The position numbers and the translations under genes are program-made. A stretch of 64,000 bases of DNA, from contig NC_086097.1 of assembly GCF_963921235.1 (NCBI RefSeq), forward strand, positions 33,048,001-33,112,000. The letters run 5' to 3'. A model generated the notes under the pieces. It was not told the origin of the DNA and ran no database searches. It saw only the letters and a list, made by a program, of their open reading frames with translations. Position 1 is the first letter of the stretch. The number at the start of each line of letters is the position of its first letter. Below are positions 669 to 60,851 of the stretch, piece by piece. The stretch is from Mobula hypostoma (lineage: Eukaryota).

Positions 669-889
669 CAGAGATTCTGCAGATGCTGGAAATCCAGAGC
701 AACCTACATAAAATGTTGGAGGAACTCAGCAAGTCAGGTAGCATCTATAGAGGAAAATAAACAGTCGACATTTCAAGCCAGACTCTTCATCAGGACTGGA
801 AAAGAAAGGAGCAGAAACCAGAAACAGAAGGTGGTGGAGGTGAAGTTACAAGCTGGCAGGTGGTAGATGAGATAAGGTGAGAAGGAAGG
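669..889 (-). mobile_element. Short PLE pseudo-LTR insertion carrying a hammerhead
   Basis: The reverse complement of 762-798 is cagtc-CTGATGA-agagtctggctt-GAAA-tGTC-gactg. The TSD gattca(c/g)agttaca is at 655-668 and 890-903. Confidence 0.85.
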
Positions 890-9678: not shown

Positions 9679-9775
9679 ACAGTCCAAATGAAGAGTCTTA
9701 GTCTGAAATGTTGACTGTGTACTCTTTTCCATAGCCTGGCCTGCTGAGTTCCTCCAGCATTTTGTGTCTGTTGAT
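9679..9775 (+). mobile_element. Short decayed HHR-only PLE derivative
   Basis: cagtccaaatgaagagtcttagtctgaaatgttgactg...ctgctgagttcctccagcattttgtgt. The ribozyme core is mutated. Confidence 0.75.
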
Positions 9776-10159
9776 TGAAGGGAAAACAGTAATGTAACAC
9801 TGGCAATTTGTGATGAATAGATGAAGGGAGAGTACAACACCAAAGAGGGATGCCCAAGTGGATTGGGAGAAAGAGTAATCAGTTTGGAAATGAGAATTCC
9901 TGGCCACAAAAAATGGCCATGGGGGCAGAGGCAAAAGAAGAGTTCAACATCGTTTCAGGCCAGGTCCTCATTAAGCTGCAGGTGTAGTGGTACACAGCTG
10001 AAGCTTCTACTGAGCACAGTCAGAAATGGTGAAAGGTTAGCAAGGGATTTGTGCTGGAAGTGGATGTGTGGTCCGAGAAACGTGAATGGGGAGGAGGCCC
10101 AGGAAAGGTACTGGAACTTGAGAGCTGGGTGTGTTTGTGGACTTTTATGTAAGAAACTC

Positions 10160-10530: not shown

Positions 10531-11374
10531 CAAATTGGTGAAAGTGTGCAGGTCCCCTGCAAGTTCAAACCATCCAGAGGGAGGTGTAGTGCATAATATT
10601 GAATACAGAGCTCTTTATGTTGTCTGGCCAAGACTCTGCGTGACTGAAGCATGACTTCATCCTCACAGGAGTTCAACCCTCCCTGAGATAAGAGCCACAT
10701 GTAGTGTGCCTTTTGATTGCTTTTTGTGCTGTGGAATGTTGTGTACGGGGACAAATATCACCTTTTTCCTCAAGAGTTCACAGCTTCTCACCAGTACTTA
10801 CGTAGCTTCAAAGTAGATAACCTCACACTTCCTTTTGCAGAACTCCATCTGTCACCATTTGGCCCTTTGGCCAATCTGTGTTTTGATAAGATTCCTGCTT
10901 CCATCTGCATAAACTGCTGAGAGGATAAGATATGATTAGCTTTATTTGTTAAATGTACAGTAAATTGAAACACTGATGTGTCAGTAAACAACACAATCCA
11001 AGGATGTGTGGTGGAGACAGAGTACAAGTGTAGCCATGCTTCCAGTGCCAACATAATATGCCCACAACTTACTCGCCCTAACCTATATGTCTTTGGAATG
11101 TGGGAGGAAACCAGAGCACTCAGAGGAAATCCACAGAGCTACAGAGAGAACATACAAACTCCTTACAGACAGTGAAGCGTATTCAAGTTCAAGTTTATTA
11201 TCATTCAGCCGTACACATGTGTACCACCAAATGAGACAATGTTCCTCTGGGCCAAGGTGCACAACTCAGTACGTATAACTCACACATATAACGCATTAAG
11301 TAGTATTACTGCAAATAAATTTACAAATAATAAAGTGCATATATAATACAAGTTTAAAAAGTAAACAGTATAAC

Positions 11375-12672
11375 ACAAACAAGAGAAAATCTGCAGATTC
11401 TGGAAATCTGAGCAACACACACAAAATGCTGGAGGTACAGTCGATACTTTGGGCCAAAACCCTTTGGCAGGACTGGAGAAAAAAAGCTGAGGAGTAGATT
11501 TAAAAGGTTGGGGGAGGAGAGGGAGAACCTGGAGGGGAGGGATGAAGTAAAGATCTGGGATGTTGATTGGTAAGATGAGGTAAGAGAGGGAAAAGGGGAT
11601 GGGAAATGGAGAAGGAGGGGGAAGTGGCATTACTGGAAGTTTGAGAAATCAATGTTCATGCCATCAGGTTAGAGGCTACCCAAACGGAATATAATGTGGT
11701 GTTACTCCAACCTAAGTGTGGCCTCATCATGACATTGGAGGAGGCCGTGGATGGACATATCGGCATGGGAATGGGAAGAGGAATTAAAATGGGTGGTCAC
11801 TGGGAGATCCCGCTTGTTCTGGCGGATGGAGCATAGATGCTTGACGAAGCAGTCTCCCAATCTACGTCGGGTCTTGCTGATATACAGGAGGCCTCACCGG
11901 GAGCACCAAATACAGTAAATGACCTAACAGGCTCACAGGTGAAGTGTTGCCTCACCTGGAAGGACTGTTTAGGGCCCTGGATGGTAGTGAGGGAGGAGGT
12001 CTAGGAGCAGGTGTAGCACTTGTTCTGCTTGCAAAGATAAGTGCCAGGAGGGAGATCATTGGGGAGGGACGAATGGACAAGGGAGTTGGGTAGGAAGCAA
12101 TCCCTGCAGAAAGCAGAAAGCGGGTGGAGGGAAAGATGAGCTTGCTAGTGGGATCCTGCTGGAGATGGCAGAAGTTGCGGAGAATTATGTGCTGGGCGCG
12201 GAGGCTGGTGGGGTGGTAGGTGAGGACAAGAGGAATCCTATCCCTGGTAGGGTGGCGGGAGGATGGGGTGAGAGCAGACGTGCATGAAATGGAAGAGATG
12301 CAGATTTGATGATGGAAAAAGGGAAGTCCCTTTCTTTAAAAAACGGAGGCATCTCCATTGTTCTAGAATGGGAGGTCTCATCCTAAGAGCAGATGCAGCA
12401 GAGATGGAGGAATTGAGAAAGGGGGTGGTGTTTTTACAAGTAGTAGGGTGGGACAAAGTATAGTCTAGGTATCTGTGAGAGTCCATGGGTTTGTAATAGA
12501 TATCAGTGGATAAGCTGTGTCTGGAGATAGAGACGGTATGATCGAGAAAGGGAAGGGAGGTGTTGGAAATGGACCAGGTGAATTTGAGGGCAGGGTGGAA
12601 GTTGGAGACAAAGTGGGTGAAGTCGACGAGTTCAGCACGGGTGCAAAAAGCAGCACCAATGCAGTCGTTGAT
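11375..12672 (-). mobile_element. Older, degraded Penelope-like element (RT C-terminus, GIY-YIG, pseudo-LTR)
   Basis: Minus-strand ORF 12238-12741 contains INDCIGAAFCTRAELVDF...LKFTWSIS...YYKPMDSH, homologous to copies 1 and 2. A variant HHR lies at 11438-11476. Confidence 0.9.
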
Positions 12673-14279
12673 GACACTACTGGTGCTTCTTATGTGATGA
12701 GACCTGGGTAGTGGCCATTGTTTTATGTAGCAGCATGACATGTCTGATTTTGTATTTTATGCCCCTTTATGAATCTTATGTTTTCGTATACTTTTATAAT
12801 CTCCATTTAGTCTATATTGTCTCCACTTTCTGCCACAGCTTATCACTGCTCATTTTACTGTATGAAATTTCATCTGCAACTGGTCTGCTCATTTAGCCAG
12901 TTTCCCCTGACATCCTGGGCTTTGTGTTATCTGCAAATTTGGAAAATTAGCCCTGTACACTCATGTCCAAGTAAAGATATGATTGTGAGGAACATCACTA
13001 TCCACCATAGTCTTTCTCAAAAGCAGCCATTTCTGAAAAGAAACCTTCTCTGCTTTCTACCTTTTTGGCTTACTGCTTCTGCCCCTTTATTTTCTTGAGC
13101 CTCAGTTTTGCTGAACAGCCTTTCGTGGTGGACTTCAAACTCATGTGGAAGATACCTTTAGCATACCCTTTACCAAGCTTCTCTCTTCTGAAGCTTGCCC
13201 ACGTTATTCGTTGACCTCATTGACCTGTAGTTCCTGGTATGTGCATGCACCCGTTTTGAACAGAGTGGTACATCTAAAGTTGAACTTCCACATGATTCTA
13301 TAAATTAGCAAAGGCCAACTTCAGTCTATGGGAAGTGATCTATCCATGAGGATGTGTAGTTAATTAATGTCAGGTAATGGATGGGTGAGTGACTTTTAAT
13401 GCTTCAGGTATAGACAGATAAGGACTTCTCCAGAAAAATGCAGTACCACCCCTTCAACAAACTCCATCCCAGCTCCCCTCAACAAACCAAGATACATTCC
13501 ATCCAAGGTTATTTGTTTAAGCATAGCCAACCTTCTTAGTAACTCCTCCTTATTTAGAATCATAGTACAGAAACAGGCCCTTTGGCCCATCAAGTCCGCG
13601 CTGAACTATTATTCCGCAAATTTATGTTCACACTGCCTATTATGTCCCTTTTAACTTTCACAGGGTCCTGCGAAGACCTTCACAAAATGCTGAGTTATGC
13701 CTTCTGACTTATGTGTTGATCACCTTTATTTTTAATTGAACCCACTTATTCTCTTGTTTACTTGGCTACAGAAGATTCTTGAATTCTACTATTGTGTTAT
13801 CACATTCATTCCTTATTCACATTCACATCACATTCTATTTGCCTTCTCCTTTCCTCCTAGAATATAATATTCAGCTTGATTCTGACAACTTGTTCATGCA
13901 GCATGTCTAAAACATTGCTTTTTTCTTCCTTACCTCCTCTCCCATTCAGGGAGCTTTTACCCTCATTCCCTTATCTTTCCCATGCTCCTCTGTACCTGAA
14001 AGGTTGTTCAATGTTCAAGACTTGCTTTGACAGAAGCATTTTGACTTTAGAATCCTCTGCGACAATCTGGCAATTATTTATTTAATGGAGCCTTTTTTTA
14101 ATCATACAAAAGTAACTTGTCTTTTATCTCTCCCCCACCACCACATATCATCAAGCTTAAATTCCAGCTCCTGCATTTACAAGTTCCACCCTTTTGCTCT
14201 GTTAGCCAAAATAATATGTATTTATTACTCCCAAATTCCCAAGTTGTGAGTCAGCCTTAGTTGACAGTAATTATCAGAT

Positions 14280-24530: not shown

Positions 24531-26993
24531 TCCAGCAACGACCATGGACACATTCACAGCGATCGCGCAACCACCAACTGCGACTCCAGCCTTGAACTCC
24601 AGGCCGGGTCTTTATGTGCTGCTGTTGTGACTCCCGTCTCCCCTTCCCCCACCACCACTCCGCAGCCCCGTCTTCCTCAGATCCCACCGTCAACTCCTGG
24701 GCCCTCAGAGGCTCCATCTTCCTCTCACCCCAACCCTCCCCTCTCCATTGACACCCCCAGCCTCCCCCCTCCCCCCTCTGATCCCAGCTCTTATCCGTGC
24801 CGGGTCTTTACCATCCCCTCCGACCTTCAACTGTCGGAGGCAGAGCGCTCTGTTCTCAGTAAGGGCCTCACCTTTGTCCCCCTTCGCCCACACCTCAGCG
24901 AGTTCCGTGTTCGCCATGATGCGGAACTTTTCTTCCGCCGTCTCCGTCTCCGAGCCTACTTCTTCGGCAAGGACTCTTCCACCCCCACCGATGACCCCTT
25001 CTCCCGTCTTCATCCCTCCTCTTCTTCATGGACACCCCGCTCTGGTCTTCTGCCTGCTCTGGATCTCTTTATTGCCAACTGCCGACGGGACATCAACCGT
25101 CTCGACTTCACCGCACCTTGTCCCCATTCCAACCTCACTCCTTCGGAACGCTCTGCTCTCCACTCCCTCCGCACTAATCCTAACATTATTATTAAACCCG
25201 CTGATAAAGGGGGTGCTGTTGTAGTCTGGCGTACTGACCTCTACCTTGCCGAGGCACAGCGACAACTCGCGGATACCTCCTCTTATTTACCCCTCGATCG
25301 TGACCCCACTAAGGAGCACCAGGCCATTGTCTCCCACACTATCAACGACTTTATCCGCTCAGGGGATCTCCCATCCACTGCTACCAACCTTCTAGTTCCC
25401 ACACCCCGCACTTCCCGTTTCTACCTCCTACCCAAGATCCACAAACCTGCCTGTCCTGGCCGACCTATTGTCTCAGCTTGCTCCTGCCCCACCGAACTCG
25501 TTTCTGCATACCTCGACACTGTTTTATCACCCCTTGTTCAATCCCTTCCGACCTATGTTTGTGACACTTCTCACGCTCTTAAACTTTTCGATGATTTTAA
25601 GTTCCCTGGCCCCCACCGCTTTATTTTCACCTTGGATGTCCAGTCCCTATATACTTCCATCCCCCATCAGGAAGGTCTCAAAGCTCTACGCTTCTTTTTG
25701 GATTCCAGACCTAATCAGTTCCCCTCTACCACCACTCTGCTCCGTCTAGCAGAATTAGTCCTTACTCTTAATAATTTCTGCTTTTGCTCCTCCCATTTCC
25801 TCCAAACTAAAGGTGTAGCTATGGGCACCCGTATGGGTCCTAGCTATGCCTGCCTTTTTGTTGGGTTTGTGGAACAATCTATGTTCCGTGCCTATTCTGG
25901 TATCTGTCCCCCACTTTTCCTTCGCTACATCGACGACTGCATTGGCGCTGCTTCCTGCACGCATGCAGAACTCATTGACTTTATTAACTTTGCCTCCAAC
26001 TTTCACCCTGCCCTCAAGTTTACCTGGTCCATTTCTGACACCTCCCTCCCCTTTCTAGATCTTTCTGTCTCTGTCTCTGGAGACAGCTTATCCACTGATG
26101 TCTACTATAAGCCTACTGACTCTCACAACTATCTGGACTATTCCTCTTCTCACCCTGTCTCTTGCAAAAACGCCATCCCCTTCTCGCAATTCCTCCGTCT
26201 CCGCTGCATCTGCTCTCAGGATGAGGCTTTTCATTCTAGGACGAGGGAGATGTCTTCATTTTTTAAAGAAAGGGGCTTCCCTTCCTCCACTATCAACTCT
26301 GCTCTTAAACGCATCTCCCCCATTTCACGTACATCTGCTCTCACTCCATCCTCCCACCACCCCACTAGGAATAGGGTTCCCCTGGTCCTCACCTACTACC
26401 CCACCAGCCTCCGGGTCCAACATATTATTCTCCGTAACTTCCGCCACCTCCAATGGGATCCCACCACTAAGCATATCTTTCCCTCCCCGCCTCTCTCTGC
26501 ATTCCGCAGGGATCGCTCCCTACACAACTCCCTTGTCCATTCGTCCCCCCCATCCCTCCCCACTGATCTCCCTCCTGGCACTTATCCGTGTAAGCGGAAC
26601 AAGTGCTACACATGCCCTTACACTTCCTCCCTTACCACCATTCAGGGCCCCAAACAGTCCTTCCAGGTGAGGCATCACTTCACCTGTGAGTCGACTGGGG
26701 TGATATACTGCGTCCGGTGCTCCCGATGTGGCCTTTTATATATTGGTGAGACCCGACGCAGACTGGGAGACCGCTTTGCTGAACATCTACGCTCTGTCCG
26801 CCAGAGAAAGCAGGATCTCCCAGTGGCCACACATTTTAATTCCACATCCCATTCCCATTCTGACATTTCTATCCACGGCCTCCTCTACTGTAAAGATGAA
26901 GCCACACTCAGGTTGGAGGAACAACACCTTATATTCCGTCTGGGTAGCCTCCAACCTGATGGCATGAACATTGACTTCTCTAACTTCCGCTAG
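24531..26993 (+). CDS. PLE reverse transcriptase + GIY-YIG endonuclease; open frame, N-terminus lost by truncation
   Basis: Motifs: LSKGLTF, KPADKGGAVV, LLPKIHK, GRPIVS, DVQSLYTSIP, GVAMGTRMGPSYA, LRYIDD, FLDL, Cys linker CKRNKCYTC, and VIYCVRCSRCGLLYIGETRRRLGDRFAEH. The frame is open from the insertion junction; the track ORF is 24627-26993. Confidence 0.95.
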   Translation, partial: SSNDHGHIHSDRATTNCDSSLELQAGSLCAAVVTPVSPSPTTTPQPRLPQIPPSTPGPSEAPSSSHPNPPLSIDTPSLPPPPSDPSSYPCRVFTIPSDLQLSEAERSVLSKGLTFVPLRPHLSEFRVRHDAELFFRRLRLRAYFFGKDSSTPTDDPFSRLHPSSSSWTPRSGLLPALDLFIANCRRDINRLDFTAPCPHSNLTPSERSALHSLRTNPNIIIKPADKGGAVVVWRTDLYLAEAQRQLADTSSYLPLDRDPTKEHQAIVSHTINDFIRSGDLPSTATNLLVPTPRTSRFYLLPKIHKPACPGRPIVSACSCPTELVSAYLDTVLSPLVQSLPTYVCDTSHALKLFDDFKFPGPHRFIFTLDVQSLYTSIPHQEGLKALRFFLDSRPNQFPSTTTLLRLAELVLTLNNFCFCSSHFLQTKGVAMGTRMGPSYACLFVGFVEQSMFRAYSGICPPLFLRYIDDCIGAASCTHAELIDFINFASNFHPALKFTWSISDTSLPFLDLSVSVSGDSLSTDVYYKPTDSHNYLDYSSSHPVSCKNAIPFSQFLRLRCICSQDEAFHSRTREMSSFFKERGFPSSTINSALKRISPISRTSALTPSSHHPTRNRVPLVLTYYPTSLRVQHIILRNFRHLQWDPTTKHIFPSPPLSAFRRDRSLHNSLVHSSPPSLPTDLPPGTYPCKRNKCYTCPYTSSLTTIQGPKQSFQVRHHFTCESTGVIYCVRCSRCGLLYIGETRRRLGDRFAEHLRSVRQRKQDLPVATHFNSTSHSHSDISIHGLLYCKDEATLRLEEQHLIFRLGSLQPDGMNIDFSNFR

Positions 26994-27284
26994 GCCCCAC
27001 CTCCCCCTCGTACCCCATCTGTTACTCTTTTTAATGCACACATTCTTTCTCTCACTCTCCTTTTTCTCCCTCTGTCCCTCTGAATATACCTCTTGCCCAT
27101 CCTCTGGGTCACCCCCCCCCGTCTTTCTTCCCGGACCTCCTGTCCCATGATCCTCTCGTATCCCCTTCTGCCTATCACCTGTCCAGCTCTCGGCTCCATC
27201 CCTCCCCCTCCTGTCTTCTCCTATCATTTTGCATCTCCCCCTCCCCCTCCAGCTTTCAAATCCCTTACTCACTCTTCCTTCAGT

Positions 27285-27322
27285 TAGTCCTGACGAAGGG
27301 TCTCGGCCTGAAACGTCGACTG
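27285..27322 (+). ncRNA. Minimal type I hammerhead ribozyme in the PLE pseudo-LTR
   Basis: tagtc-CTGACGA-agggtctcggcct-GAAA-cGTC-gactg. Stem I is tagtc/gactg and stem II is agg/cct. Stem III is reduced to the ACGT palindrome. Predicted cleavage is after C27317. Confidence 0.85.
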
Positions 27323-28989
27323 CACCTCTTCCTATAGATGCTGCCTGGCCTGCTGCGTTCACCAGCAACTTTGATGTATGTTGCTTGAATTTCCAGCATC
27401 TGCAGAATTCCTGTTGTTTATATTCTCTCTTCTAGTAATCTTTAGCAATGGAGTTACAGAGTTAAACAGTATGGAAGCAGGCCCTTTGGCCTGACTCATA
27501 TGTGTTGACTGAGGTGCATGCCTACACTAAATCTCATTTACCTGTACTTGGCTCTTGTCCTTCTGTTTCTTTCCTGCCCATTGTACCTGTCTAAATGCTT
27601 TTTAAACATTGTAATTGTACCTGCCTTTAGCTTCTCATTCCATGTACCCACCACAGAGACATACCACCCAAGTATGTAATTTCCTGACACAGGCAGAGTA
27701 GTAACGGGTTGCCTTTATCAGTCAGGGCATTCAGTACAGGAGTTAGGGAATCATGTTGCAATTGGGGAGACCATGCTGAGTATTATGTATGCCACTGGTT
27801 GCATAGCTGTAGGAGGGATGTCATTAAACTGGAAAGAATGCAGAAAAGATTCACAAGGATGTTCCCAGGACTGGAGGGCTTGAGTTAGAAAGAGAGACTG
27901 AATAGGCTGGGACTTTCCTCCTAGGAGCACAAGAGGCTGAGGAGGACTTTATAGAGGTTTATAAAATCATGAAGGTCTTAGTTAAGATGGATGGTCACAG
28001 TTTTTCACCAGGGGAGGGAGAATCTAAAACAAAAGGGCCTAGAGTTAAAGTGAGGCATAGATTTAAAATAGACCTGAGGGGCAACTTTTTCCACACACAG
28101 ATGAAGGATATATGGAACAAGCTTCCAAATTAAATCTTTCCCCTGTATCTTCTAGTCTTAGACCCCACCCTTGGAAAAACATAAAACACAGGAAGTACAA
28201 CACAGTACAGGACCTTTAGCCAAGTTGTCATGCCAATCTATTAACCTACTCCACGATCAATCTAATCTTTCCCTCCTATGTAGCCCAAAACCCTTCTGAC
28301 TATAGTGGACATAAGTAGTGTAGACTGACCATCTGCACTATCTATGCCCTCACAGCATGAAAAACTTCAGTGAGGTCACCCCTCAGCCACCTTCACTCAA
28401 GCAGGACAGATGTAGTACATATATTGGTAATTCCTGTCCCTCAGACTCTGCTTGACCCACCGTGTGCCTCCAGCAGATTGTTACTCCAGATTCCAGCAGC
28501 TGCAATCTCTGGTGCCTCCAACATCCTGCTGAATCTGTGTTGCACTTTCTAGTGGTACTATAGCTTTCGCATAGTGTGGTGACTAGAACTGTAAAGGATA
28601 TTTTAAGTGTGGCATAACTGATGCCTTGTACCATGGAGAGCATTCTAACACACTGCAACACCATCTGGTATGGGGTGGTGGCGGCACGGCACAATTCTTC
28701 TCTTCCTTCCTCCGTCCAACCTAGCACTTGAAATTTTTTCTGTCTCTTTGTGTCTTGTATTTTTGACTTTAGATATGTCATTTTTGAAAATTGTGCAAGG
28801 TATTTGTTTTAATTAATTTTCAGGATCTGGGGATTACTGGCAAAGCTACCATTTCTTGTACATGCCTTACAGCCCTTAAAAACACAGTGCTGGTTCACTG
28901 TCATCACAACAATCCCTCTGGTGAAGATGTTCCCACATTGCTTTTTGGGTGACCTTAATATTGGAATGTGGCTGATAATATCCTCACTT

Positions 28990-32944: not shown

Positions 32945-33505
32945 GAAGATTTCCTGGTGGCCACCCATTTTATTCAACTTTTAAATCCCATTCCAACATG
33001 TTGGTCCATGGCCTCCTCTGCTGCTGTAACGAGGCCACTCTCAGACTGGAGGAGCAACATCTCATATTCTGACTGGGTAGGTTCCATCCTGACGGCATGA
33101 ACATTGACTACCAACTTCCATAATTTCTCCCCCCCCCCCCCCGCCATCTCCTTCTCTCTTTTCCCATTCCCTATTCTGGGTCCCCTTTTACCCCTTCTCT
33201 TCTCACCAGCTCATCACCTCTTTTAGTTCCCATTCTCCCTCCCTTTCTTCCATGGTCCATTGTCCTCTCCGATCAGATTCTTCCTTCTTCAGCCCTTGAC
33301 CTCTTCCACGTACCAGGTCCTTCACCTGGTCTCATCTGCCCAATGCCAGCTTGTATTCCTTCTCATCCCTCTACCTTCTTGATCTGGCATCTACCCCCTT
33401 CCCTGCTAGTCCTGATGAAGGATCCCAGCTCAAAATTTTGACTTCTTCGATCTGTCGATGCTACCTAACCTCCTGAGTTCTTCCAGCATTTTTAGTATGT
33501 TGCTT
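32945..33505 (+). mobile_element. Degraded PLE 3' fragment (end of GIY-YIG, 3' region, decayed HHR)
   Basis: Contains gtggccacccattt...gaggagcaacatctcatattc...ggcatgaacattgac, homologous to the PLE ORF end. tagtcctgatgaagg is near 33407. Confidence 0.85.
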
Positions 33506-33529
33506 TGGGATAAGAATGCAGGTTCAAGA

Positions 33530-33616
33530 GTCCTGCTGAAGGGTTTTGGCCCAAAACATTGATTGTACTCTTTTCCATAGATGCTGCCTGAGTTCCTCCA
33601 GCACTTTGTGTGTGTT
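33530..33616 (+). mobile_element. 87-bp HHR-only PLE derivative
   Basis: Starts at gtcctgctgaaggg. Flanked by ga(a/g)tgc(a/g)ggttcaaga direct repeats at 33514-33529 and 33617-33632. Confidence 0.8.
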
Positions 33617-34693
33617 GAGTGCGGGTTCAAGACACTTCACCACACAATCCAGATACTGTGGTGCAGTGTTGAGTGTCATCCTGTGTTGACAAAGGTGTCA
33701 AAGATCAGGTGACTGTTAAAGGCATCACTCAAGTATCTGGGATTTGCTGTTGTTTATCCTTTGACCAAAGCAGATCATTGCTCATTTATCTAAGCATTAT
33801 CTATGGGATTGTTGGCAGTGGGGATAAGCCAAGTAATTCCAAGCCTGTGTATCCAATGTCAGTGGTAGGGAAGAAATTCTGAGGAAGAAGATTAATCTTA
33901 ATGGAAAAGTAAGGATTAATCAGATGGTTAGAGTGGCGTTGTTGAAGGGAAATCCTTTTTGAGCAAATTGATTGAATATTTCAGTGAGGTGACAAAGTGG
34001 AGAGGGTGCAGAGGTGATTAATCAACAAGCTGCTCCGCATGAAACTTCTCTGTTATAAGGAGAAACCGGATTAACTGGATTTGTTTTCCTTGGAGTAGAG
34101 GAGGCTGAGGGTGGACCTGATGGAGATTTCGGAAACTTTCTGCCGTAGTGGAGGTCATAAAAATCATGTCATAGGTATCTAAAGCTAGCAGACATAATGA
34201 TAGGGCAAGGATTAGGTGGTTTAGAAATGAGGTGCAGAAGTATTCTTTCTCCCAGAAAGTAGCTGGAATCTAAGAAGTATCTAGGTGAGCATGTGAAATG
34301 ACAAGGCAGAGAAGGCAGCAGGCGAAGTGCTGGTAAATGGGATTAATATAAGTAGCTGTTGGATGGTGGGTTGAAAGACCTGTTTCCATTCTCTGTGACT
34401 CGATCGTGTACGTAGATGGCTGGCATTAGAAGATTCGTATTTTATGAAGTAGCTATGAAGCCCAAGATCCTAAATGTTTTATTGACCATGTTCCCTCAAC
34501 ATTCGACAGCTTCAAAGATTTATGTAGGTTTGCACCCTCTGGCAGCATATTCTATGCACCTAGCACTCTCTGTGTAAAACAAAACCTACCTCTGACGTCC
34601 GTCCTATAATATTCTCCAATCACTTTAAAATTATGCCCGCTGCTATTAGCCATTTCCACTCTTGGAAAAAAGTCTCTGCCTCTACTCAGTCTA

Positions 34694-36296: not shown

Positions 36297-38531
36297 TATC
36301 CCTCTTATCATTTTGTACACTTTAATCAAATCACCTTTTATCCTCCTTCACTGAAGAGAAAAGCAAGTTAAAAAGCTCAGTGGATGCTTGGAATGTGCTG
36401 CCTGGGTGGAGGAGGCAAATATGTTATGCATGCTCAAGAGGCTGTTAGGTAGGCATATGAAGATGCAGAAAATGGAAGGATATGGGCATTGCGTGGGCAG
36501 AAAGGATTTGTTTAGTTTGGTGTTTGATTTTATTTGGTTCAGCACAACATTGTGGGCTGAAGGTCCTGATCCTGTTCTGTCCAGCCAGCTTGTCTGTTGT
36601 CTTGTGCATCGTAGTATAAACAGTTCCCAACTACTCAGTGTCATGTAGTCCCCAAGGTGAAAAATCAGGAAAATATAGAGGAAATAAAATCTAAAAATCC
36701 TCTTAGTTGCATTAGTCTGCGAAGCCATATTGAAACTGACTTATTAAAGGATTAAAATTTTAAGATTTTACAATAATACCTGAAGCAACATCCCTAAAGA
36801 CCTAGTTAAAATGTTTTTATCTTATATATTTTATGAGAACTATTTGTTTTCCTTCAAGAATGTATCTTTTTGAAAAGGATATCATGTGTAGGTTCCTAAT
36901 CAATGACCTGTTTGTGGACATGTACTGTAATAGATTACACAAGCCAGTGATAAGACCAGATAACTTAGGGGAGAAATATCTCTGATTAGTAAAACTTAGG
37001 TGGCAATGGATGACTTTGAACTGTAGGTATTATTTATTGTCATTACCAATTTAGCCGTAATTTATTACGGAAAACAAAAGTTGATGGTTTGCCTAAAGCT
37101 TGCTTAATAACCATAAATACACATATTTTGCTAGACAAAGATAATAACTCAAAAATCACCCTGGAACTGAACCAAAAGTGTAAAGAAATACAAAAAAAAA
37201 ATCCAGCTCTACTCATTTTACAGGGTCACTACTTTACAACAGTGACTGCAGTTCAAAAATATTTCATTTTCTGTAAAGAGCTTTAAGGTCATGGAAAGAA
37301 CTGCAGTAACGTGAACTCTTTTTCAACAAGCGTCCTCAGCCATAACACAGCTCATCTCTCCCTTGTAGTTTAAGTGCAGGAGCTGGCAGCTTCCACCAGA
37401 GTTCTGAGCCGGATGATCTCATTCTGGAGACAATGGTGAGGTTGATGCAATTGGTCCCAGCTGGGCTGAAATCTGAGAAATGATTAGCAGGTGTTCCCAT
37501 TGCGTTGTGGCTCTCTGTGCATTGTTGAAAGGTATATCTGCTGGCAAGTTTGAGAATATAATTGAGCTTGATTAAGCTGAGTTACTGAGCCTGACCAGGT
37601 TGGATCATTCCCTTCCAGGCTAATATCCCCTGCATAGAAGCTTGAATCACACTCAGATGTATGCCATAGGTAGGCTCCATCAAAATAGGCATCCAGTTCC
37701 AAATTCCATCACAGCCATTGATTACCGGAGAAAATAAGAGTATTACCAAAGCCTTCATGAAATTATGAACATCCTCACCAATTCATAGGTTTCTCTGATT
37801 CAGATTGATTTATTTATCATGTGTATACTGGATTTATTCAGTTCACCTATACACCTGCTTCTTAATGCCAAAATCTAATCAGTCAATCATGCTGCACAAC
37901 TCAATACATAAAACCATGCAGACATGGTCAAGAGGTTCTGTTTTTTATATCAAACATCAGAATTGGGAAGAAGTATGATCCAAATGACTTTGACCATGAA
38001 ATGGCACAGAGCTTAGGTCAGTGGTGCAGAAGGGAAAGAGAGAGAAGAGGGGAGAGGTAGTGATAAGGGGACTCAGTAGTCAGGGGAACAGACAGGAGAT
38101 TCTGTGGATGTGACCGGGACACCCCAGTAGTATGTTGCCTCCCAGGTACCAAGGTCAGGGATGTCTTGGATCATGTCCACAACATCTTGGAGAGAAAGAG
38201 AGAGGCAGATCATCCAGATGTCTTGGTACATATTGGTACCAATGAGACAGGAAGGAAAAGCAAAGAGATCCTGAAGAGAGAATTTAGAGAGCTAGGCAGA
38301 AAGCTGAGAAGTAGGATCTCCTGGGTAGTAATTTCTGGATTGATGCCTGTGCCAGGCGCTGGTGAGGGTAGAAACAGGATGATTTAGCAAATTAATGCGT
38401 GGCTCAGTAGCTGGTGCAGGGGGCAGGGCTTCAGTTCTTGGATCACTGGGATTTTTTCTGGGGAAGATGTGACCTGTTCAGAATTCCTGTTGTTTGCGTT
38501 TAAATTCACTACTGCGAAGCCTCTTCCGGTG

Positions 38532-41500
38532 ATGCCTACACCGAAGAAGTTTAGATCCTCTCTTCGACGGGAGTTCAGTGAAACCATCTCTCACTGCTCC
38601 CCATCTGTAATTTCTTCGGCTCTTCAACTTTTCGACCACACTTTGACTCAAACTCGCTATCACAGCCATATATCCTTTCTTGGAACGTGCCTCCGTCGCC
38701 AACTTACTCCAGTTGGCTTTAGGATTCGTTTCCAAGCCTTTCAATTTGGACCTTCTGAGGATCCCAGGTACTCACATTTTATTGACTCTGCCTCTCGCCG
38801 CTTCTCCCGTCAAGCTCTGAAGGCGACGCTCTCCACCATGAGGAGGTACTTGGTGTCCCTATCCCAGACCCTTCCACACCTTCGGGACACTTTCTTCGCC
38901 GTCTGTAATGGTCCTACCCATTATTTCATCCTCCGTCGGATTCACGCCTGCAATCGCCGTTTTTTTGACTTTGTCATGTTAGGCAAAGATCGCAAGATCT
39001 TACATCTACGGACTCCAGAGCCTGCCGGCCCCGACGCTAGCAGGCATGAACTTTCAATTGCGGCCTCTGCCATTGATCTCGGCGGCTCCAACACCTCAGG
39101 ACATATTCAAAACACGGACTCCAGCAACGACCATGGACACCTTCACAGCGATTGCGCAACCACCAACTGCAACTCCAGCCTTGAACTCCAGGCCGGGTCT
39201 TTATGTGCTGCTGTTGTGACTCCCGTCTCCCCTTCCCCCACCAATACTCTGCAATCCCATCTCCCTTAGATCCCACCGTCAGCTCCTGGGCCCTCAGAGG
39301 CTCCATCTTCCTCTCACCCCAACCCTCCCCTCTCCATTGACACCCCCAGCCTCCCCCCTCCCACCTCTGATCCCAGCTCTCATACGTGCCGGGTCTTTAC
39401 CATCCCCTCCGACCTTCAACTGTCGGAGGCAGAACGCTCTGTTCTCAGTAAGGGCCTCACCTTTGTCCCCCTTCGCCCACACCTCAGTGAGTTCCGTGTT
39501 CGCCATGATGCGGAACTTTTCTTCCGCCGTCTCCGTCTCCGAGCCTACTTCTTCGGCAAGGACTCTTCCACCCCCACCGATGACCCCTTCTCCCGTCTTC
39601 AACCCTCCTCTTCTTCATGGACACCCCGCTCTGGTCTTCTGCCTGCTGTGGATCTCTTTATTGCCAACTGCCGATGGGACATCAACCGTCTCGACTTCAC
39701 CACACCTTGTCCCCATTCCAACCTCACTCCTTCGGAACGCTCTGCTCTCCACTCCCTCCGCACTAATCCTAACCTTATTATTAAACCCGCTGATAAGGGG
39801 GGTGCTGTTGTAGTCTGGCGTACTGACTTCTACCTTGCCGAGGCACAGCGACAACTCGCGGATACGTCCTCTTATTTACCCCTCGATCGTGACCCCACTA
39901 AGGAGCACCAGGCCATTGTCTCCCACACTATCACCGACTTTATCCGCTCAGGGGATCTCCCATCCACTGCTACCAACCTTATAGTTCCCACACCCCGCAC
40001 TTCCCGTTTCTACCTCCTACCCAAGATCCACAAACCTGCCTGTCCTGGCCGACCTATTGTCTCAGCTTGCTCCTGCCCCACCGAACTCGTTTCTGCATAC
40101 CTCGACACTGTTTTATCACCCCTTGTTCAATCCCTTCCGACCTATGTTCGTGACACTTCTCACGCTCTTAAACTTTTCGATGATTTTAAGTTCCCTGGCC
40201 CCCACCGCTTTATTTTCACCATGGATGTCCAGTCCTTATATACTTCCATCCCCCAACAGGAAGGTCTCAAAGCTCTACGCTTCTTTTTGGATTCCAGACC
40301 TAATCAGTTCTCCTCTACCACCACTCTGCTCCGTCTAGCGGAATTAGTCCTTACTCTTAATAATTTCTCCTTTTGCTCCTCCCATTTCCTCCAAACTAAA
40401 GGTGTAGCTATGGGCACCCGTATGGGTCCTAGCTATGCCTGCCTTTTTGTTGGGTTTGTGGAACAATCTATGTTCCGTGCCTATTCTGGTATCTGTCCCC
40501 CACTTTTCCTTCGCTACATCGACGACTGCATTGGCGCTGCTTCCTGCACACATGCAGAACTCGTTGACTTTATTAACTTTGCCTCCAACTTTCACCCTGC
40601 CCTCAAGTTTACCTGGTCCATTTCCGACACCTCCCTCCCCTTTCTAGATCTTTCTGTCTCTGTCTCTGGAGACAGCTTATCCACTGATGTCTACTATAAG
40701 CCTACTGACTCTCACAACTATCTGGACTATTCCTCTTCTCACCCTGTCTCTTGCAAAAACGCCATCCCCTTCTCGCAATTCCTCCGTCTCCGCCGCATCT
40801 GCTCTCAGGATGAGGCTTTTCATTCTAGGACGAGGGAGATGTCTTCATTTTTTAAAGAAAGGGGCTTCCCTTCCTCCACTATCAACTCTGCTCTTAAACG
40901 CATCTCCCCCATTTCACGTACATCTGCTCTCACTCCATCCTCCCACCACCCCACTAGGAATAGGGTTCCCCTGGTCCTCACCTACCACCTCACCAGCCTC
41001 CGGGTCCAACATATTATTCTCCGTAACTTCCGCCACCTCCAACGGGATCCCACCACTAAGCACATCTTTCCCTCCCCCGCTCTCTCTGCATTCCGCAGGG
41101 ATCGCTCCCTACACAACTCCCTTGTCTATTCGTCCCCCCCATCCCTCCCCACTGATCTCCCTCCTGGCACTTATCTGTGTAAGCGGAACAAGTGCTACAC
41201 ATGCCCTTACACTTCCTCCCTTACCACCATTCAGGGCCCCAAACAGTCCTTCCAGGTGAGGCATCACTTCACCTGTGAGTCGACTGGGGTGATATACTGC
41301 GTCTGGTGCTCCCGATGTGGCCTTTTATATATTGGTGAGACCCGACGCAGACTGGGAGACCGCTTTGCTGAACATCTACGCTCTGTCTGCCAGAGAAAGC
41401 AGGATCTCCCAGTAGCCACACATTTTAATTCCACATCCCATTCCCATTCTGACATGTCTATCCACGGCCTCCTCTACTGTAAAGATGAAGCCACACTCAG

Positions 41501-41582
41501 GTTGGAGGAACAACACCTTATATTCCGTCTGGGTAGCCTCCAACCTGATGGCATGAACATTGACTTCTCTAACTTCCGCTAA
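38532..41582 (+). pseudogene. Full-length PLE ORF (about 1016 codons) with one premature stop
   Basis: Track ORFs 38469-39269 and 39648-41582 are in the same frame. The TAG at 39267-39269 corresponds to CAG (Gln) in copy 1. The N-terminus reads MPTPKKFRSS...HISFLGTCLRRQLTPVGF. Confidence 0.9.
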
Positions 41583-41877
41583 TGCCCCACCTCCCCCTCG
41601 TACCCCATCTGTTACTCATTTTTATGCATACATTCTTTCTCTCACTCTCCTTTTTCTCCCTCTGTCCCTCTGAATATACCTCTTGCCCATCCTCTGGGTC
41701 ACTCCCCCCCCTTGTCTTTCTTCCCGGACCTCCTGTCCCATGATCCTCTTGTATCCCCTTTTGCCTATCACCTGTCCAGCTCTTGGCTCTATCCCTCCCC
41801 CTCCTGTCTTCTCCTATCATTTTGCATCTCCCCCTCCCCCTCCAGCTTTCAAATCCCTTACTCACTCTTCCTTCAGT

Positions 41878-41915
41878 TAGTCCTGACGAAGGGTCTCGGC
41901 CTGAAACGTCGACTG
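41878..41915 (+). ncRNA. Minimal type I hammerhead ribozyme in PLE copy 2
   Basis: Identical to the copy 1 motif: CTGACGA at 41883-41889, GAAA at 41903-41906, GTC ending at 41910. Confidence 0.85.
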
Positions 41916-44900
41916 CACCTCTTCCTATAGATGCTGCTTGGCCTGCTGCGTTCACCAGCAACTTTGATGTATGTTGCTTGAATTTCCAGCATCTGCAGAA
42001 TTCCTGTTTTTTTCCTGTTCAAAAGTGATGGGTTGCACCTGAACCCAAGAGGAACCAATGTTCTCACGAGCTGGTTTGTTAGAGCTTTTGGGGAGGATTT
42101 AAACTAATTTGGTAGGGGGATAGGAAACAGAGTGAAGCGACTCAGGATAGGACAGATAGTGAAAAAGCAAAGCTAGCATGCAGTTAGAGTGTCAGGAGGG
42201 GCAGGCAGATGATAGGACACAATTGCAGCTAGCCAGGTGAGTATCAGTGCATTAGCAATGCAGAATCGAAAAGGGTAGCAAATGTGGCACTCAAAGTGTT
42301 ATCTCAATGAACAGAGTATAAAAAATAACGTGGATGACCTTGTTGCACTATTACAGATTGTCAGGTATGATGTGGTAATCATCACTGAATTGTGACTGAA
42401 GGAAGTTGTAGTTGGGAGCTGAATGTCCAAGGTTACACATTGTATCGGAGGGATAGGAAGGTTGGCAGAGGGGGTGGCGTGGCTCTGCTGGTAAAGAATG
42501 GCATCAAATCGGTAGGAAAAGGTGACATAGGATCAGAAGATGTTGAATCCTTGTGGGTTGAGCTAAGAAACTGCAAGGTAAAAAGGACCCTGATGGCAGT
42601 TATATATACAGGCCTCCCAACAGTAGCTGGGATGTGGACCACAGATTACAACAGGAAATGAAAAAGGTGTGTCAAAAGGGCAATGTTGTGATAGTCATGG
42701 GAGATTTCAACATGCAGGTTGATTGGGAAAATCAGGTTGACGGTGAGTTTATTGAATGCCTACGAGATGGCTCTTGGAGCAGTTTGTCATTGAGCCTACT
42801 TGGGGATCAGCTATACTGAATTGGGTGTTATGTAATGAACTGGAAGTGATTAAGGAGCTTAAGGTAAAAGAACCCTGAGGAGAGAGTGAACACAATATGA
42901 TTGAGCTCAACTTGAAATTTGATAGAGAGAAAGTAAAGTCTGACATAGCAGTATTTCAGTGGAGTAAAGGAAACTACAGTGGTATGAGAAAGTAGTTAGC
43001 CAAAGAAAATTGGAAGGAGAAGCTGACAGGGATGTCAGCAGAGCAGCAGTGGCGTGAGTTTCTAGGGAAAATGAGGGAAGTGCAGGGTAAGTGTATCAAA
43101 AAAATAAAGAAATACTTAAATGGCAGAATAGTATAACGATGGCTGACAAGGGGAGTCAAACTAATGCAAAAGCAAAAGAGAGGACATACTTCAAAGCAAA
43201 AGTTAGTGGGAAGACAGAGGATTGGGAAGCTTTTAAAAACCTACAGAGAGCAACTGAAAGAATCATTAGGAGGGAAAAGATGAAATATGTAATCAAGCTA
43301 GCAAACTATCAAAGTGGATAGTAAAAGCTTTTTCAAGTATGCAAAAAATAAAAGAGAAAAGAGAGTTGATAAAGGACCACTAGAAAATGACCCTGAGAAA
43401 TAATAACAGGGGACAAGTAGATGGCAGATGAACTAAATGAGTATTTTGTATCAGGCTTCACTGTGGAAGACACTCGCAGTGTGCCAGGTGTTGAAGGATG
43501 TAAGTGAAGACAAGTGAGTGCAGTTACTATAACCAGGGAGAAGAATCTCAAAAAACTGAAAGACCTAAGGGTACCTAAGTCACCCAGACCAGATGAACTG
43601 CACCCTAGGGTTCTGAAAGAGGTAGCAGTAGATATTGTGGAGGCATTAGTAATGATCTTTCAAAAATCATTGGACCCTGGCATGGTGCCAGAGGACTGGA
43701 AAATTGCAAATGTTACTCTACTCTTTAAGAAAGGAGGAAGGCAGCAGAAAGGAAATTATAGGCTAGTTAGCCTGACCTCAGTGGTTGGGAAGATGTAAAA
43801 GTCAGTTGTTAAGGATGAGGTGATGGAGTACTTGGTGACACAGGGCAAGATAAGACAAAGTCAGCATGGTTTCCTTAAGGGAAAATCTTGCCTTACAAAC
43901 CTGTTGGAATTCTTTCAGGAAGTTATATGTAGGACAGATAAAGGGGATGCAGTGGATATTGTATATTTGGACTTTCAGAAGGCCTTTAATAAAGTGCCAA
44001 ACATGAGGCTGTTTATCAAGTTAAGACCCCATAGTATTACAGGATACTTAGTGACATGGTTAGAGCACTTGCTGATTGATAGCAGGCGAGTAAGTGGGTA
44101 TAAAAGGATCCTTTTCTGGTTGGCTGCCATTGACTAATGGTGTTCTGCAGGGGTCAGTGTTGGGACTGCTTCTTTTTATGCTGTATATCAATGATTTAGA
44201 TGATGGAACGGGTGGCTTTGTTGCCAAGTTTGTAGATGATACAAAGATTGGTGGTGGAGCAGGTAGGAAACAGGTAGGTTGCGGAAGGACTTGGATCAGG
44301 AGACAGAGGAAGAAAGTGGGAAATGAAATACAATGTTGGAAAATGCACAGTCATGCACTTTGGTTGTAGAAATAAATGTGCAGTCTATTTTCTAAATGGG
44401 GAGAAAATCGAAAAACGTGAGATGCAAAGGGACTTGGGATTCCTTGTGCAAAACACCCTAAAGGTTAACTTACAGGTAGTGTCAGTGGTGAGGAAAGCAA
44501 ATGCAGTGTTGGCATTCATTTCAAGAGAATACAAGAGCAAAAATGTGATGCTGAGGCTTTATAAGGCACTGGTGAAGCCTCACCTTTAGTACTGTGAACA
44601 GTTTTGGGGTCCTCATCTAAGAAAAGATGTCTGGCATTGGAGAGGGTTCAGAGGAGGTTCATAAGGATGATTCCTGGATTGAAAGGGTTATCATACAAGG
44701 AACGTTTGATGGTTCTGGGTCTGTACCTGCTGGAATTTAGAAGGATAGGGGATCTCATTTAAACCTTTCAAAGGTTGAAAGGCCTAGACAGAGTAGATGT
44801 GGATAGGATGTTTCCCCTTGGTGGTGGCGTCTAGGACAAAAGAGCAGAGCCTCAGGATAGAGGGGAGTCCATTTAAAACAGATGCAGAGAAGTTTCTTTA

Positions 44901-54911: not shown

Positions 54912-55325
54912 TTACACACGCAAAATGTTGGAGGAACTCAGCAGGCCAGACAGCATCTATGGAAAAAAGTACAGTTGATGTTTCGGGCCAAGACCCTTTG
55001 GCAGGACTGGAGGGAAAAAAGATGAGGAGTAGTTTTAAAAGGTGGGAGGGAGGGGAGGGAGAAACGCAAGGTGATAGGTGAAACCAGGAGGGAGAGAGAT
55101 GAAATAAAGAGTTGGGAAATTATTTGGTGAAAGGGATACAGGGCTGGAGAAGGGGGAGTCTGGTAGGAGAGAACAGAAGGCCATGGAAGAAAGAAAAGGG
55201 GGGAGGAGCACCAGAGGGAGGTGATGAGCAGGCAAAGTGATAAGTTGAAAGAGAGAAAGGGGATGGGGAATGATGAAGGTTGGGAGCATTACATGAAGTT
55301 CAAGAAATTGATGTTCATGCCGTCA
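54912..55325 (-). mobile_element. PLE 3' fragment with variant HHR, inserted in a Rex/Babar element
   Basis: The reverse complement of 54971-55010 is ccagtcctgccaaagggtcttggcccgaaacatcaactgt. The ORF end ggcatgaacatcaatttc is near 55300-55320. Confidence 0.85.
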
Positions 55326-57440: not shown

Positions 57441-57454
57441 TTAAATATTATTTA

Positions 57455-57588
57455 CACAAGAGATTCTGCAGATGCTGGAAATCCAGAGAAACCCTTAGTC
57501 CTGATGAAAGGTCTCGCCTGAAACTTTATCTGTTTATCCCTCTCCATACATGCTGCCTGACCTGCTGAGTTCCTCCAGCATTTTGTGT
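57455..57588. mobile_element. Short PLE pseudo-LTR insertion with an inverted terminal segment
   Basis: A minus-strand terminus (cacaagagattctgcagatgctggaaatcc) is joined to the plus-strand sequence tagtcctgatgaaaggtctcgcctgaaac...ccagcattttgtgt. Confidence 0.8.
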
Positions 57589-59499: not shown

Positions 59500-60310
59500 A
59501 AAACCAAGAGATTCTGCAGTTGCAGTAAATCCAGAGTATCACACTCAAAATGCTGGAGGTACTCAGCAGGTCAGGCAACATCTATGGAGAAGAATAAAGA
59601 GCCAACATTTTGGGCCAAGACCCTTCATCAGGACTTTTCATTGGGACCGTTAAGGCCATAAGAGGGGCAGAATTAGTCCATTCAGCCCATCTGTGGTGGC
59701 CAGTGCGATCATGTTTGCTGTTGTGTGCTGGGGCAGCAGGCTGAGGGTAACAGACACCAACAGAATCAACAAACTTGTTCATAAGGCCAGTGATGTTGTG
59801 GGGATGGAACTGGACTCTCTCACAGTGGTGTCTGAAAAGAGGATGCTGTCCAAGTTGCATGCCATCTTGGTCAATGTCTCCCATCCACTACATAATGTAC
59901 TGGGTGGCACAGGAGTACATTCAGCCAGACACTCATTCCACCGAGATGCAACACTGAGTGTCATAGGAAGTCATTCCTGCCTGTGGCCATCAAACTTTAT
60001 AACTCCTCCCTTGGAGGGTCAGACACCCTGAGCCAATAGGCTGGCCCTGGACTTACTTCATAATTTACTGGCATAATTTACCTATTACTATTTAACTATT
60101 TATGGTTTTATTACTATTTATTATTTATGGTGCAACTTTAACGAAAACCAATTTCCCCCGGGATCAATAAAGTATGACTGCTACTACTACTACTATTACT
60201 AGCCCATTCTCTTTCTTTAGTCCTGAGGAAGGGTCTTAGCCGAAACATCAGCTCTTTATTCCTGTCATTAAATTCTGCCCAATATGCTGAGTTCCTCCAG
60301 CATTTGTGTT
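59500..60310. mobile_element. Inverted pair of HHR-bearing pseudo-LTRs within a single TSD
   Basis: Minus copy at about 59503-59636 and plus copy at about 60218-60310. A perfect 13-bp TSD gattcaagggata lies at 59487-59499 and 60311-60323. Confidence 0.85.
59690..60200 (+). mobile_element. Rex1/Babar 3' fragment (different subfamily) with (cta)n tail
   Basis: VVASAIMFAVVCWG..RINKLVHKA..SHPLH. Flanked by agcccat direct repeats. Related to 30190-30470. Confidence 0.82.
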
Positions 60311-60851
60311 GATTCAAGGGATATTGTGATAGGGTAGGAAACTGGTGTGGAACAAGGGTCTTTTTAAATGTTGGGGATAGGTGGAAGTATGGATTGGGCT
60401 TCTGTGCCTATTGACTAAGGCAACTGTACTGCTCCAAAGAGCACCATATGAGGTCATTCTTACACTCAACCATTAGGCTCTATAATGAGTCAACCTATGG
60501 CCAGGGTAGTGATGACCGCCCGCCCACCCCCCAGGCTGTTTGTGGAAACTTATTTTTTCATTCTTTCTACTTCTCCTCTAATATTTATATCTGTGCACTA
60601 ATTATGCTACTGTGACACTGTAATTTCCTTTGGGATCAATAAAGTATCTATCTATCTACCTTAAGTTACTGTAGGTTAGATTTTAAAGTAATGACAAACT
60701 ATGGATTCATGGAGTCAGAAATGTACAGCACAGAAACGGGTTGTTTCAGCCCACCTCTTCCATCTACTCTTTGATATTTCTGGATTTAGTTGTATTCATG
60801 GGAACTGCTCTTTAAACCCACTTCAATGAATTTGCCTTTGTATCTCAATAG

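What the first reader, a model, noticed from the sequence alone, without database searches (positions are those of the whole stretch)
33530..33616. Family of about 90-135 bp 'ribozyme-only' retroposed units starting at hammerhead stem I
Seen: five short copies (9679+, 33530+, 57497+, 59636-, 60218+) begin within a few bases of the agtcCTGA stem I and include nothing of the upstream pyrimidine tract. The 33530 copy has its own 16-bp TSD. Random 5' truncation would not be expected to hit the same point repeatedly. Inference: this is either a defined non-autonomous, PLE-mobilised HHR mini-element (retrozyme- or SINE-like), or a strong reverse-transcriptase stop or RNA-processing site just 5' of the ribozyme. 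This is the best candidate here for an under-described system: an autonomous RT/GIY-YIG driver plus ribozyme-sized passengers.
Basis: partly seen in the sequence, partly recalled or inferred. Interest (0 to 1): 0.75.

Follow-up and report, generated by a model that had tools for sequence, protein, structure and literature searches.

The report
Penelope stubs begin at ribozyme edge
These short repeats are cut-short end pieces of a very abundant Penelope-type jumping gene rather than a family of their own, and about a fifth of them begin at the front edge of its small ribozyme motif, likely because the copying enzyme starts inside the element's RNA and runs off an RNA end that lies there.

Summary
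All five window copies start at helix I (A of AGTCC = +1). The 33530 copy has a 16-bp target duplication matching at 14 of 16 bases. In 490 copies from about 1.9 Mb of this genome, 5' ends fall at -2..+7 about 19 times more often per base than further upstream, and 22 times in the young subfamily. A separate mini-element is not supported. Young short and long copies interleave on a tree, only 93 of 490 end at the peak, 94 reach the ORF, there are no arrays, and there is no peak at the predicted cut site. They are stubs of a Neptune-type Penelope element. Their 3' ends sit at two sites (+99, +134), and 65 of 72 head-to-head pairs have one of each, fitting the two internal start sites shown in vitro for an anole element. 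Best reading: run-off from an RNA beginning at +1. New here: +1/+2 is also a conserved splice-acceptor-like site, as in Drosophila Penelope, yet 0 of 326 copies are spliced. The scan noted this peak before on other DNA.

The parts
33529..33617 (+). The finding: 89-bp Penelope stub, +1 to about +99 (tail-less), older 'O' subfamily, with an internal 8-bp deletion
33514..33529 (.). Left copy of the target-site duplication; its last A is shared with +1 and the base before +1 is G
   Evidence: 14 of 16 match
33617..33632 (.). Right copy of the target-site duplication
33529..33564 (+). Decayed minimal hammerhead motif (A6C, GAAA lost, no GTC); predicted inactive
   Evidence: sequence; one search shows no hammerhead fold
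32948..33513 (+). Older long copy of the same element (ORF end, tract, hammerhead, core) just upstream of the finding
9681..9776 (+). Stub starting at +1, tail-less
57497..57588 (+). Stub starting at 0/+1; forward arm of a head-to-head insertion
57454..57488 (-). Inverted tailed arm (+96..+134) of the 57497 insertion
59501..59635 (-). Stub +1..+136, tailed
60219..60311 (+). Stub starting at +1; short pyrimidine run upstream is ambiguous
676..815 (-).
1072..1123 (-).
54914..55321 (-). Long O-subfamily copy reaching back to the ORF end
11374..12756 (-). O-subfamily copy with decayed RT/endonuclease ORF and pLTR; same hammerhead variant class as 33530
24531..27419 (+). Young 'Y' subfamily element 1, 5'-truncated, open RT/GIY-YIG frame, about 12-bp duplication
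38480..42012 (+). Young 'Y' element 2, one full unit from tail to tail, 8-bp duplication; ORF 38532-41582 with one in-frame stop
41879..41914 (+). Intact minimal hammerhead motif of element 2; predicted cut after 41910 (+32)
   Evidence: sequence
41580..41880 (+). Intron-like pLTR segment: ORF stop, pyrimidine tract, branch-like motif at 41859-41865, YAG at 41878-41880
   Evidence: intron end at helix I in D. virilis, PMC4209133

Best explanation
The short units are single-use insertions of a Neptune-type Penelope-like element, likely made when its reverse transcriptase starts internally at +99 or +134 of its own RNA and runs off an RNA 5' end at about +1, which is likely a transcription start. 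Shown: two fixed 3' ends, a 5' boundary at helix I, 10-15-bp target duplications, shared subfamily variants with long copies, and head-to-head pairs with one arm from each 3' site. Inferred: the endonuclease cuts both target strands and each cut end can prime. One primed strand gives a solo stub with a duplication; two give a head-to-head double stub. Long copies would come from read-through or tandem transcripts that carry upstream sequence. Hammerhead cleavage is not used to define the template.
For: The 5'-end rate at -2..+7 is 0.032 per base against about 0.0017 upstream and 5 times the rate at +16..+45 (93 of 490 copies). In 296 copies with no inversion called it is 16 times the upstream rate. 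Of copies that include +3 and lack the tract, strict starts are spread over 0, +1, +2, +3 (10, 14, 18, 14) and thin out upstream, so the edge is near +1 rather than +3. The sequence at +1 fits the initiator pattern YYANWYY in both subfamilies (pattern recalled). All 4 young non-inverted copies starting exactly at +1 have G before it (flank G frequency 0.18); extra G marks capped RNA in L1 and SVA (PMC4859970, passages). 3' ends cluster near +99 and +134, and 65 of 72 classifiable pairs have one of each, p 3e-13. Arms share variants at 195 of 219 sites against 64% for random pairs. Duplications were found in 24 of 53 young non-inverted copies against 0 of 53 controls. In vitro, anole PAc starts at two internal sites, extends both strands, shortens its product when the template is 5'-truncated and does not need hammerhead cleavage (PMC11167929).
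Against: No RNA 5' end was observed. The peak is a plateau of about 10 bases, with a raised shoulder to -27 (0.011-0.015 per base), not a single base. The G signal rests on 4 copies, was noticed before it was counted, and 2 of the 4 G lie inside the duplication; of 2 old non-inverted +1 starters 1 has G. In D. virilis the transcription start is 46 bp upstream of the intron (PMC2377424), not at helix I. The 3' extension past the tail does not differ between peak (8 of 16) and long (15 of 28) copies, so it cannot place short copies in the 5' pLTR. PAc is a Poseidon-clade element and this one is Neptune-type.
Confidence: 0.5

Rival explanations
1. The boundary is the 3' splice site of a pLTR intron. 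Reverse transcription on unspliced or half-spliced RNA would stall where splicing factors sit (AG, tract, branch point), so only RNA that escapes splicing gives long, intron-retaining copies.
For: YAG at 0..+2 in 114 of 118 long copies. A donor-like GT overlaps the ORF stop in 21 of 26 old copies. Branch-like motifs lie at about -14. The zone of raised ending rate (+7 to -27) matches that footprint. The D. virilis intron ends at the 5' end of helix I (PMC4209133). None of 326 copies carries a spliced joint.
Against: The young subfamily has lost the donor (CT in 54 of 60) yet keeps the peak at 22 times background. Many ends include the AG itself, whereas a roadblock should stop 3' of it. The AG is also held by helix I pairing. 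The cluster at -13/-14 is only 5-6 ends.
Confidence: 0.2
2. The template is a processed, uncapped RNA trimmed by a 5'-to-3' exonuclease back to the first protected structure, helix I or the bound protein; the enzyme then runs off that end.
For: The edge coincides with the first paired base of helix I; +1..+36 folds with +1..+4 paired. It would hold in all subfamilies regardless of donor.
Against: Helix I is only 4 bp and the fold is not more stable than shuffles (z -0.6). It does not explain the G before +1.
Confidence: 0.15
3. RNA or cDNA hairpins around the hammerhead make the enzyme stop or let two cDNA ends anneal there, with no special RNA end.
For: 150 of 281 short copies have an inverted neighbour. 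An alternative hairpin spans -14..+16 in the young subfamily. Junctions often show microhomology.
Against: The peak is as strong in non-inverted young copies (16 ends, 25 times background). Stalls are expected on the 3' side of a stem (established RT behaviour, recalled). About half of the pairs have a tail-less arm reaching further 5' than the tailed arm, which excludes simple fold-back copying.
Confidence: 0.1
4. The stubs are an independent non-autonomous element (retrozyme- or SINE-like) with its own master copies, mobilised by the Penelope protein.
For: Very high copy number (about 115,000 extrapolated), fixed ends, target duplications. Old short copies cluster slightly on a tree (31 changes against 37.2; 2 of 200 shuffles as low).
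Against: Young short copies interleave with long ones (38 of 200 shuffles as low). There is no pile-up at the cut site (6 of 433 at +33..+35) and no arrays (11 of 490 same-strand neighbours, all at different spacings). 6 of 16 young tailed peak copies run 4-12 bases on into the element's own 5' UTR. Only 18 of 159 old copies keep a strict core.
Confidence: 0.05

Closest known systems
Insertions of endonuclease-positive Penelope-like elements, Neptune/Nematis type (PMC8557442, passages)
   Same: RT plus C-terminal GIY-YIG with a Cys linker, heavy 5' truncation, inverted 5'-truncated neighbour, optional 30-40-bp tail on one end, hammerhead in the pLTR.
   Different: The passages read do not report a fixed 5' boundary at helix I or count the one-tail-per-pair rule.
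Minimal hammerheads of metazoan PLE pLTRs (PMC4209133, parts 1-2 of 4)
   Same: Same minimal motif with an extra base before stem II and palindromic helix III; mostly single motifs 'probably related to truncated PLEs'; opposite-strand pairs 100-700 bp apart; intron end at helix I in D. virilis.
   Different: That paper proposes self-cleavage and circular templates; here copies do not begin at the cut site.
Poseidon element PAc of Anolis carolinensis (PMC11167929, parts 1-2 of 4)
   Same: Two internal RT start sites that bound the tail, both strands extended, hammerhead cleavage dispensable, no RNA reads ending at the cut site.
   Different: Different clade; its ORF starts inside the hammerhead (here 170 bases after +1). 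The text read does not map genomic 5' ends; its supplementary figures could not be seen.
Non-LTR retrozymes of animals (PMC7229834, passages; bioRxiv 10.64898/2026.07.22.740005, part 1 of 5 and passages)
   Same: Hammerhead-bearing, protein-less, related to PLE pLTRs, with large duplications.
   Different: Retrozymes are tandem arrays of about 300-bp units cut at the ribozyme into circular RNA. These stubs are 90-135 bp, solo or head-to-head, and start 32 bases before the cut site.

Membership tests
EN+ Penelope-like element | Single ORF with RT and C-terminal GIY-YIG endonuclease | tested here: met
   Pfam RVT_1 E 9e-5 and 2e-4, below its curated cut-off; DKG, YIDD, YIGET and RFAEH motifs read directly. 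Pfam gave no GIY-YIG hit at 0.001.
EN+ Penelope-like element | pLTR with hammerhead motif, optional tail, inverted truncated neighbour | tested here: met
Neptune clade | CX2-5CxxC linker between RT and endonuclease | tested here: met
   CKRNKCYTC at residue 637; definition in PMC8557442. Nematis shares a Zn-finger-like linker.
Neptune clade | RT phylogeny groups with Neptune, not Nematis | not tested
   no protein tree was built
Non-LTR retrozyme | Head-to-tail tandem units each with a hammerhead | tested here: not met
   11 of 490 same-strand neighbours within 400 bp, no constant period
Non-LTR retrozyme | Unit boundaries at the ribozyme cut site | tested here: not met
   6 of 433 ends at +33..+35, at local background
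Non-LTR retrozyme | Abundant circular RNA monomer | not testable with these tools
   only assembled contigs were available
SINE-like non-autonomous family | Own master lineage distinct from the partner element | tested here: not met
   young subfamily tree, 33 short and 84 long copies; weak clustering in old copies fits subfamily mix
Active hammerhead ribozyme | Intact CUGANGA / GAAA / NUH core | tested here: not met
   33530 copy is mutated at all three; strict core in 109 of 163 young and 18 of 159 old copies
Spliceosomal intron in the pLTR | Donor, branch point, tract, acceptor, and a spliced RNA | tested here: inconclusive
   signals conserved in old subfamilies, donor lost in the young one; no clean spliced joint among the joints shown

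The most novel reading that the evidence does not exclude
The stub boundary is the footprint of splicing on the Penelope template. Reverse transcription aborts at the 3' splice site fused to helix I, so RNA engaged in splicing yields only ribozyme-sized stubs and only unspliced read-through RNA yields long copies. That would explain why Penelope elements keep their introns, and it would account for about 100,000 stubs in one vertebrate genome.
Probability: 0.2. Interest if true: 0.7.

Novelty: new member of a known kind. Interest (0 to 1): 0.38.

Why it matters
How Penelope-like elements copy themselves in vivo is still open. The fixed 5' edge, the two 3' ends and the one-tail-per-pair rule give genome-scale support for the internal, two-site priming seen so far in vitro for one element. 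They argue against hammerhead-cut or circular templates for this family, and they name one base where an RNA end or a splice block should be found by a single experiment. For annotation, such stubs should be filed as truncated Penelope copies, not as a new SINE or retrozyme.

Tried and rejected
Rfam at gathering thresholds: 0 matches in the window. DNA search of the own genome with the pLTR returned nothing because common words are skipped. Sequencing runs: no RNA holder listed on record, all 22 are assembled contigs. Laying 4 runs on a young copy and 4 on an old copy showed no start sites and no clean GT..AG joint among the 15 joints shown in each call (31 and 219 more were not shown). One contig joint, 41569 to 41879 in X5, has unknown letters between and was not counted. 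Cut-site run-off: rejected. Spliced-template copies: 0 of 326, best scores at chance level. A second boundary at -3 in the young subfamily: the cluster was inflated by a permissive rule at that position, and one search leaves it inconclusive. A second peak at +10..+12 in old copies: likely alignment breakage over decayed CpGs, not pursued. A peak at a D. virilis-like start near -345: 8 ends between -294 and -341 in the young subfamily, not sharp. Extension past the tail as a marker of 5'-pLTR origin: no difference, p 0.47. Dfam and Repbase could not be consulted.

Full report
Setting. The window lies in a 3.48-Gb genome. The repeat landscape looks like a shark or ray; that label is recalled and comes from no call. 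Two young elements (24531-27419, 38480-42012) encode an RT with a Cys linker and a GIY-YIG-type endonuclease and end in a pyrimidine tract, a minimal hammerhead motif, a core and a 34-bp tail. I number from the A of AGTCC (+1; 41879 in element 2). The predicted cut is after +32.

The observation. The five copies start at +1 or 0. The 33530 unit is 33529-33617 with a 16-bp duplication matching at 14 positions. The other four have no duplication above control. 57497 has an inverted tailed arm upstream, and 60219 has an ambiguous pyrimidine run. The 33530 hammerhead core is mutated. Its subfamily has long, ORF-linked members: 9 of its 15 best matches extend past -120. The window holds 12 copies in all, of which 5 are long.

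Sample. Exact 26- and 33-base motifs of the old (O) and young (Y) subfamilies occur 31,885 and 33,777 times in the genome. I examined the window, 115 position-chosen 10-kb stretches of contigs C1 and C2 (20 of them next to the window), 60 motif-anchored loci and 60 stretches around listed motif sites, about 1.9 Mb in all. A profile of the 3' core, which is independent of the 5' end, found 514 copies. I dropped 24 (17 whose alignment missed the anchor, among them the 33530 copy itself, and 7 at locus edges), leaving 490. A reversed-sequence control on the position-chosen set gave 0 hits. The 207 copies from the position-chosen set extrapolate to about 590,000 copies, about 115,000 of them at the peak (two contigs only).

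5' ends. 93 of 490 end at -2..+7, and 62 of 310 at risk end at 0..+3. The rate per base there is 19 times the rate at -28..-290 and 5 times the rate at +16..+45. It is 22 times in Y (207 copies, mostly above 90% identical to references), 25 times in non-inverted Y, and 16 times in all 296 copies with no inversion called. The two arms of a pair were counted separately; collapsed to 414 events, 85 have an end at the peak. A shoulder runs to -27. Beyond -50 the ends of Y copies spread smoothly to -3400. 94 copies reach the ORF. At the predicted cut site there is no excess (6 of 433).

Not a separate family. On a tree of the +1..+100 region, 33 short and 84 long Y copies need 27 label changes against 28.95 for shuffles. 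In O, 48 short and 68 long copies need 31 against 37.2, a weak clustering that fits a mix of subfamilies. No arrays were found. 6 of 16 tailed Y peak copies continue 4-12 bases into the element's own 5' UTR, which a solo master would not supply.

3' ends and pairs. 3' ends cluster near +99 and +134. 150 of 281 short copies have an inverted neighbour. Of 76 head-to-head pairs, 72 could be classed and 65 have one tailed and one tail-less arm. Arms agree at 195 of 219 variable sites against 64% for random pairs, so both come from the same source element, unless later conversion made them alike. In about half of the pairs the tail-less arm reaches further 5' than the tailed one, so neither arm is a fold-back copy of the other. 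This matches PAc of the anole, which in vitro starts at two internal sites that bound the tail, extends both strands and does not need hammerhead cleavage (PMC11167929, parts 1-2 of 4 read; its supplementary figures were not visible, and may show genomic 5' ends). Duplications of 10-15 bp flank 24 of 53 non-inverted Y copies against 0 controls, and 7 of 142 O copies against 0. Short filler sequence often lies between the duplication and +1.

What makes the edge. Two signals overlap at +1/+2. One is an initiator-like YYANWYY (pattern recalled). Starts are spread over 0..+3 rather than fixed at +3, and 4 of 4 young non-inverted +1 starters have a preceding G, the mark of a copied cap in L1 and SVA (PMC4859970, passages); that count is small and post hoc. 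The other is a splice acceptor: YAG in 114 of 118 long copies behind a tract and branch-like motif, with a donor-like GT on the ORF stop in 21 of 26 O copies but CT in 54 of 60 Y copies. In D. virilis the intron ends at the 5' end of helix I (PMC4209133, parts 1-2 of 4) and the start site is 46 bp before the intron (PMC2377424, passages and Discussion). No copy of 326 carries a spliced joint. I put run-off from a transcription start at 0.5, a splice-site block at 0.2, a trimmed RNA end at 0.15, structure alone at 0.1 and an independent element at 0.05. That the stubs are by-products of the Penelope element and not their own family I hold at about 0.9. Contigs of public runs could not show RNA ends or splicing.

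Known and new. Truncation, inverted neighbours, one-sided tails and dispersed minimal hammerheads are described (PMC8557442, passages; PMC4209133; PMC3846280, passages and Discussion). Retrozymes differ in being tandem and cut-defined (PMC7229834, passages; bioRxiv 10.64898/2026.07.22.740005, part 1 of 5 and passages). In eight library searches I saw no paper reporting a 5' pile-up at helix I. Subscription papers, Dfam and Repbase were out of reach. Earlier notes of this scan describe the same pile-up and the run-off idea on other DNA, in this genome and in others; these are unchecked AI notes, not independent support. A search of them for the splice-acceptor link found none.

Verdict. Real, but a by-product of a known kind of element. 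The value lies in the testable mechanism. Interest 0.38.

Noticed in passing
window 38480-42012: Element 2 is exactly one unit long, from within the tail to the end of the tail, with an 8-bp duplication inside a decayed CR1-like repeat (label recalled). L052 has a 5' junction at the same base.
   Followed up: partly
L188 and L217: Two independent head-to-head insertions have the same junction: tailed arm ending at +24, one extra base, tail-less arm starting at +3. Unexplained.
   Followed up: no
window 33529-33540, 11374-11480, 54914-55010: One old subfamily spread with a core change (A6C) predicted to kill hammerhead cleavage: 29 of 159 old copies, 0 of 163 young.
   Followed up: partly
window 41864-41894: In the young subfamily a predicted hairpin from -14 to +16 would block the hammerhead fold when upstream RNA is present; its energy is not beyond shuffles.
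   Followed up: partly
window 33617-33850: The target of the 33530 insertion has a tRNA B-box-like motif and resembles an old tRNA-derived SINE (recalled, not tested).
   Followed up: no
L029:1424-1556: Contigs of runs X5 and X6 join the tail back to -12, a tandem or circular junction of about 133 bases. It may be a genomic partial tandem.
   Followed up: no
window 35537-35995: ORF fragment resembling a Tc1/mariner transposase (recalled); several CR1/L2-type RT fragments lie elsewhere in the window.
   Followed up: no
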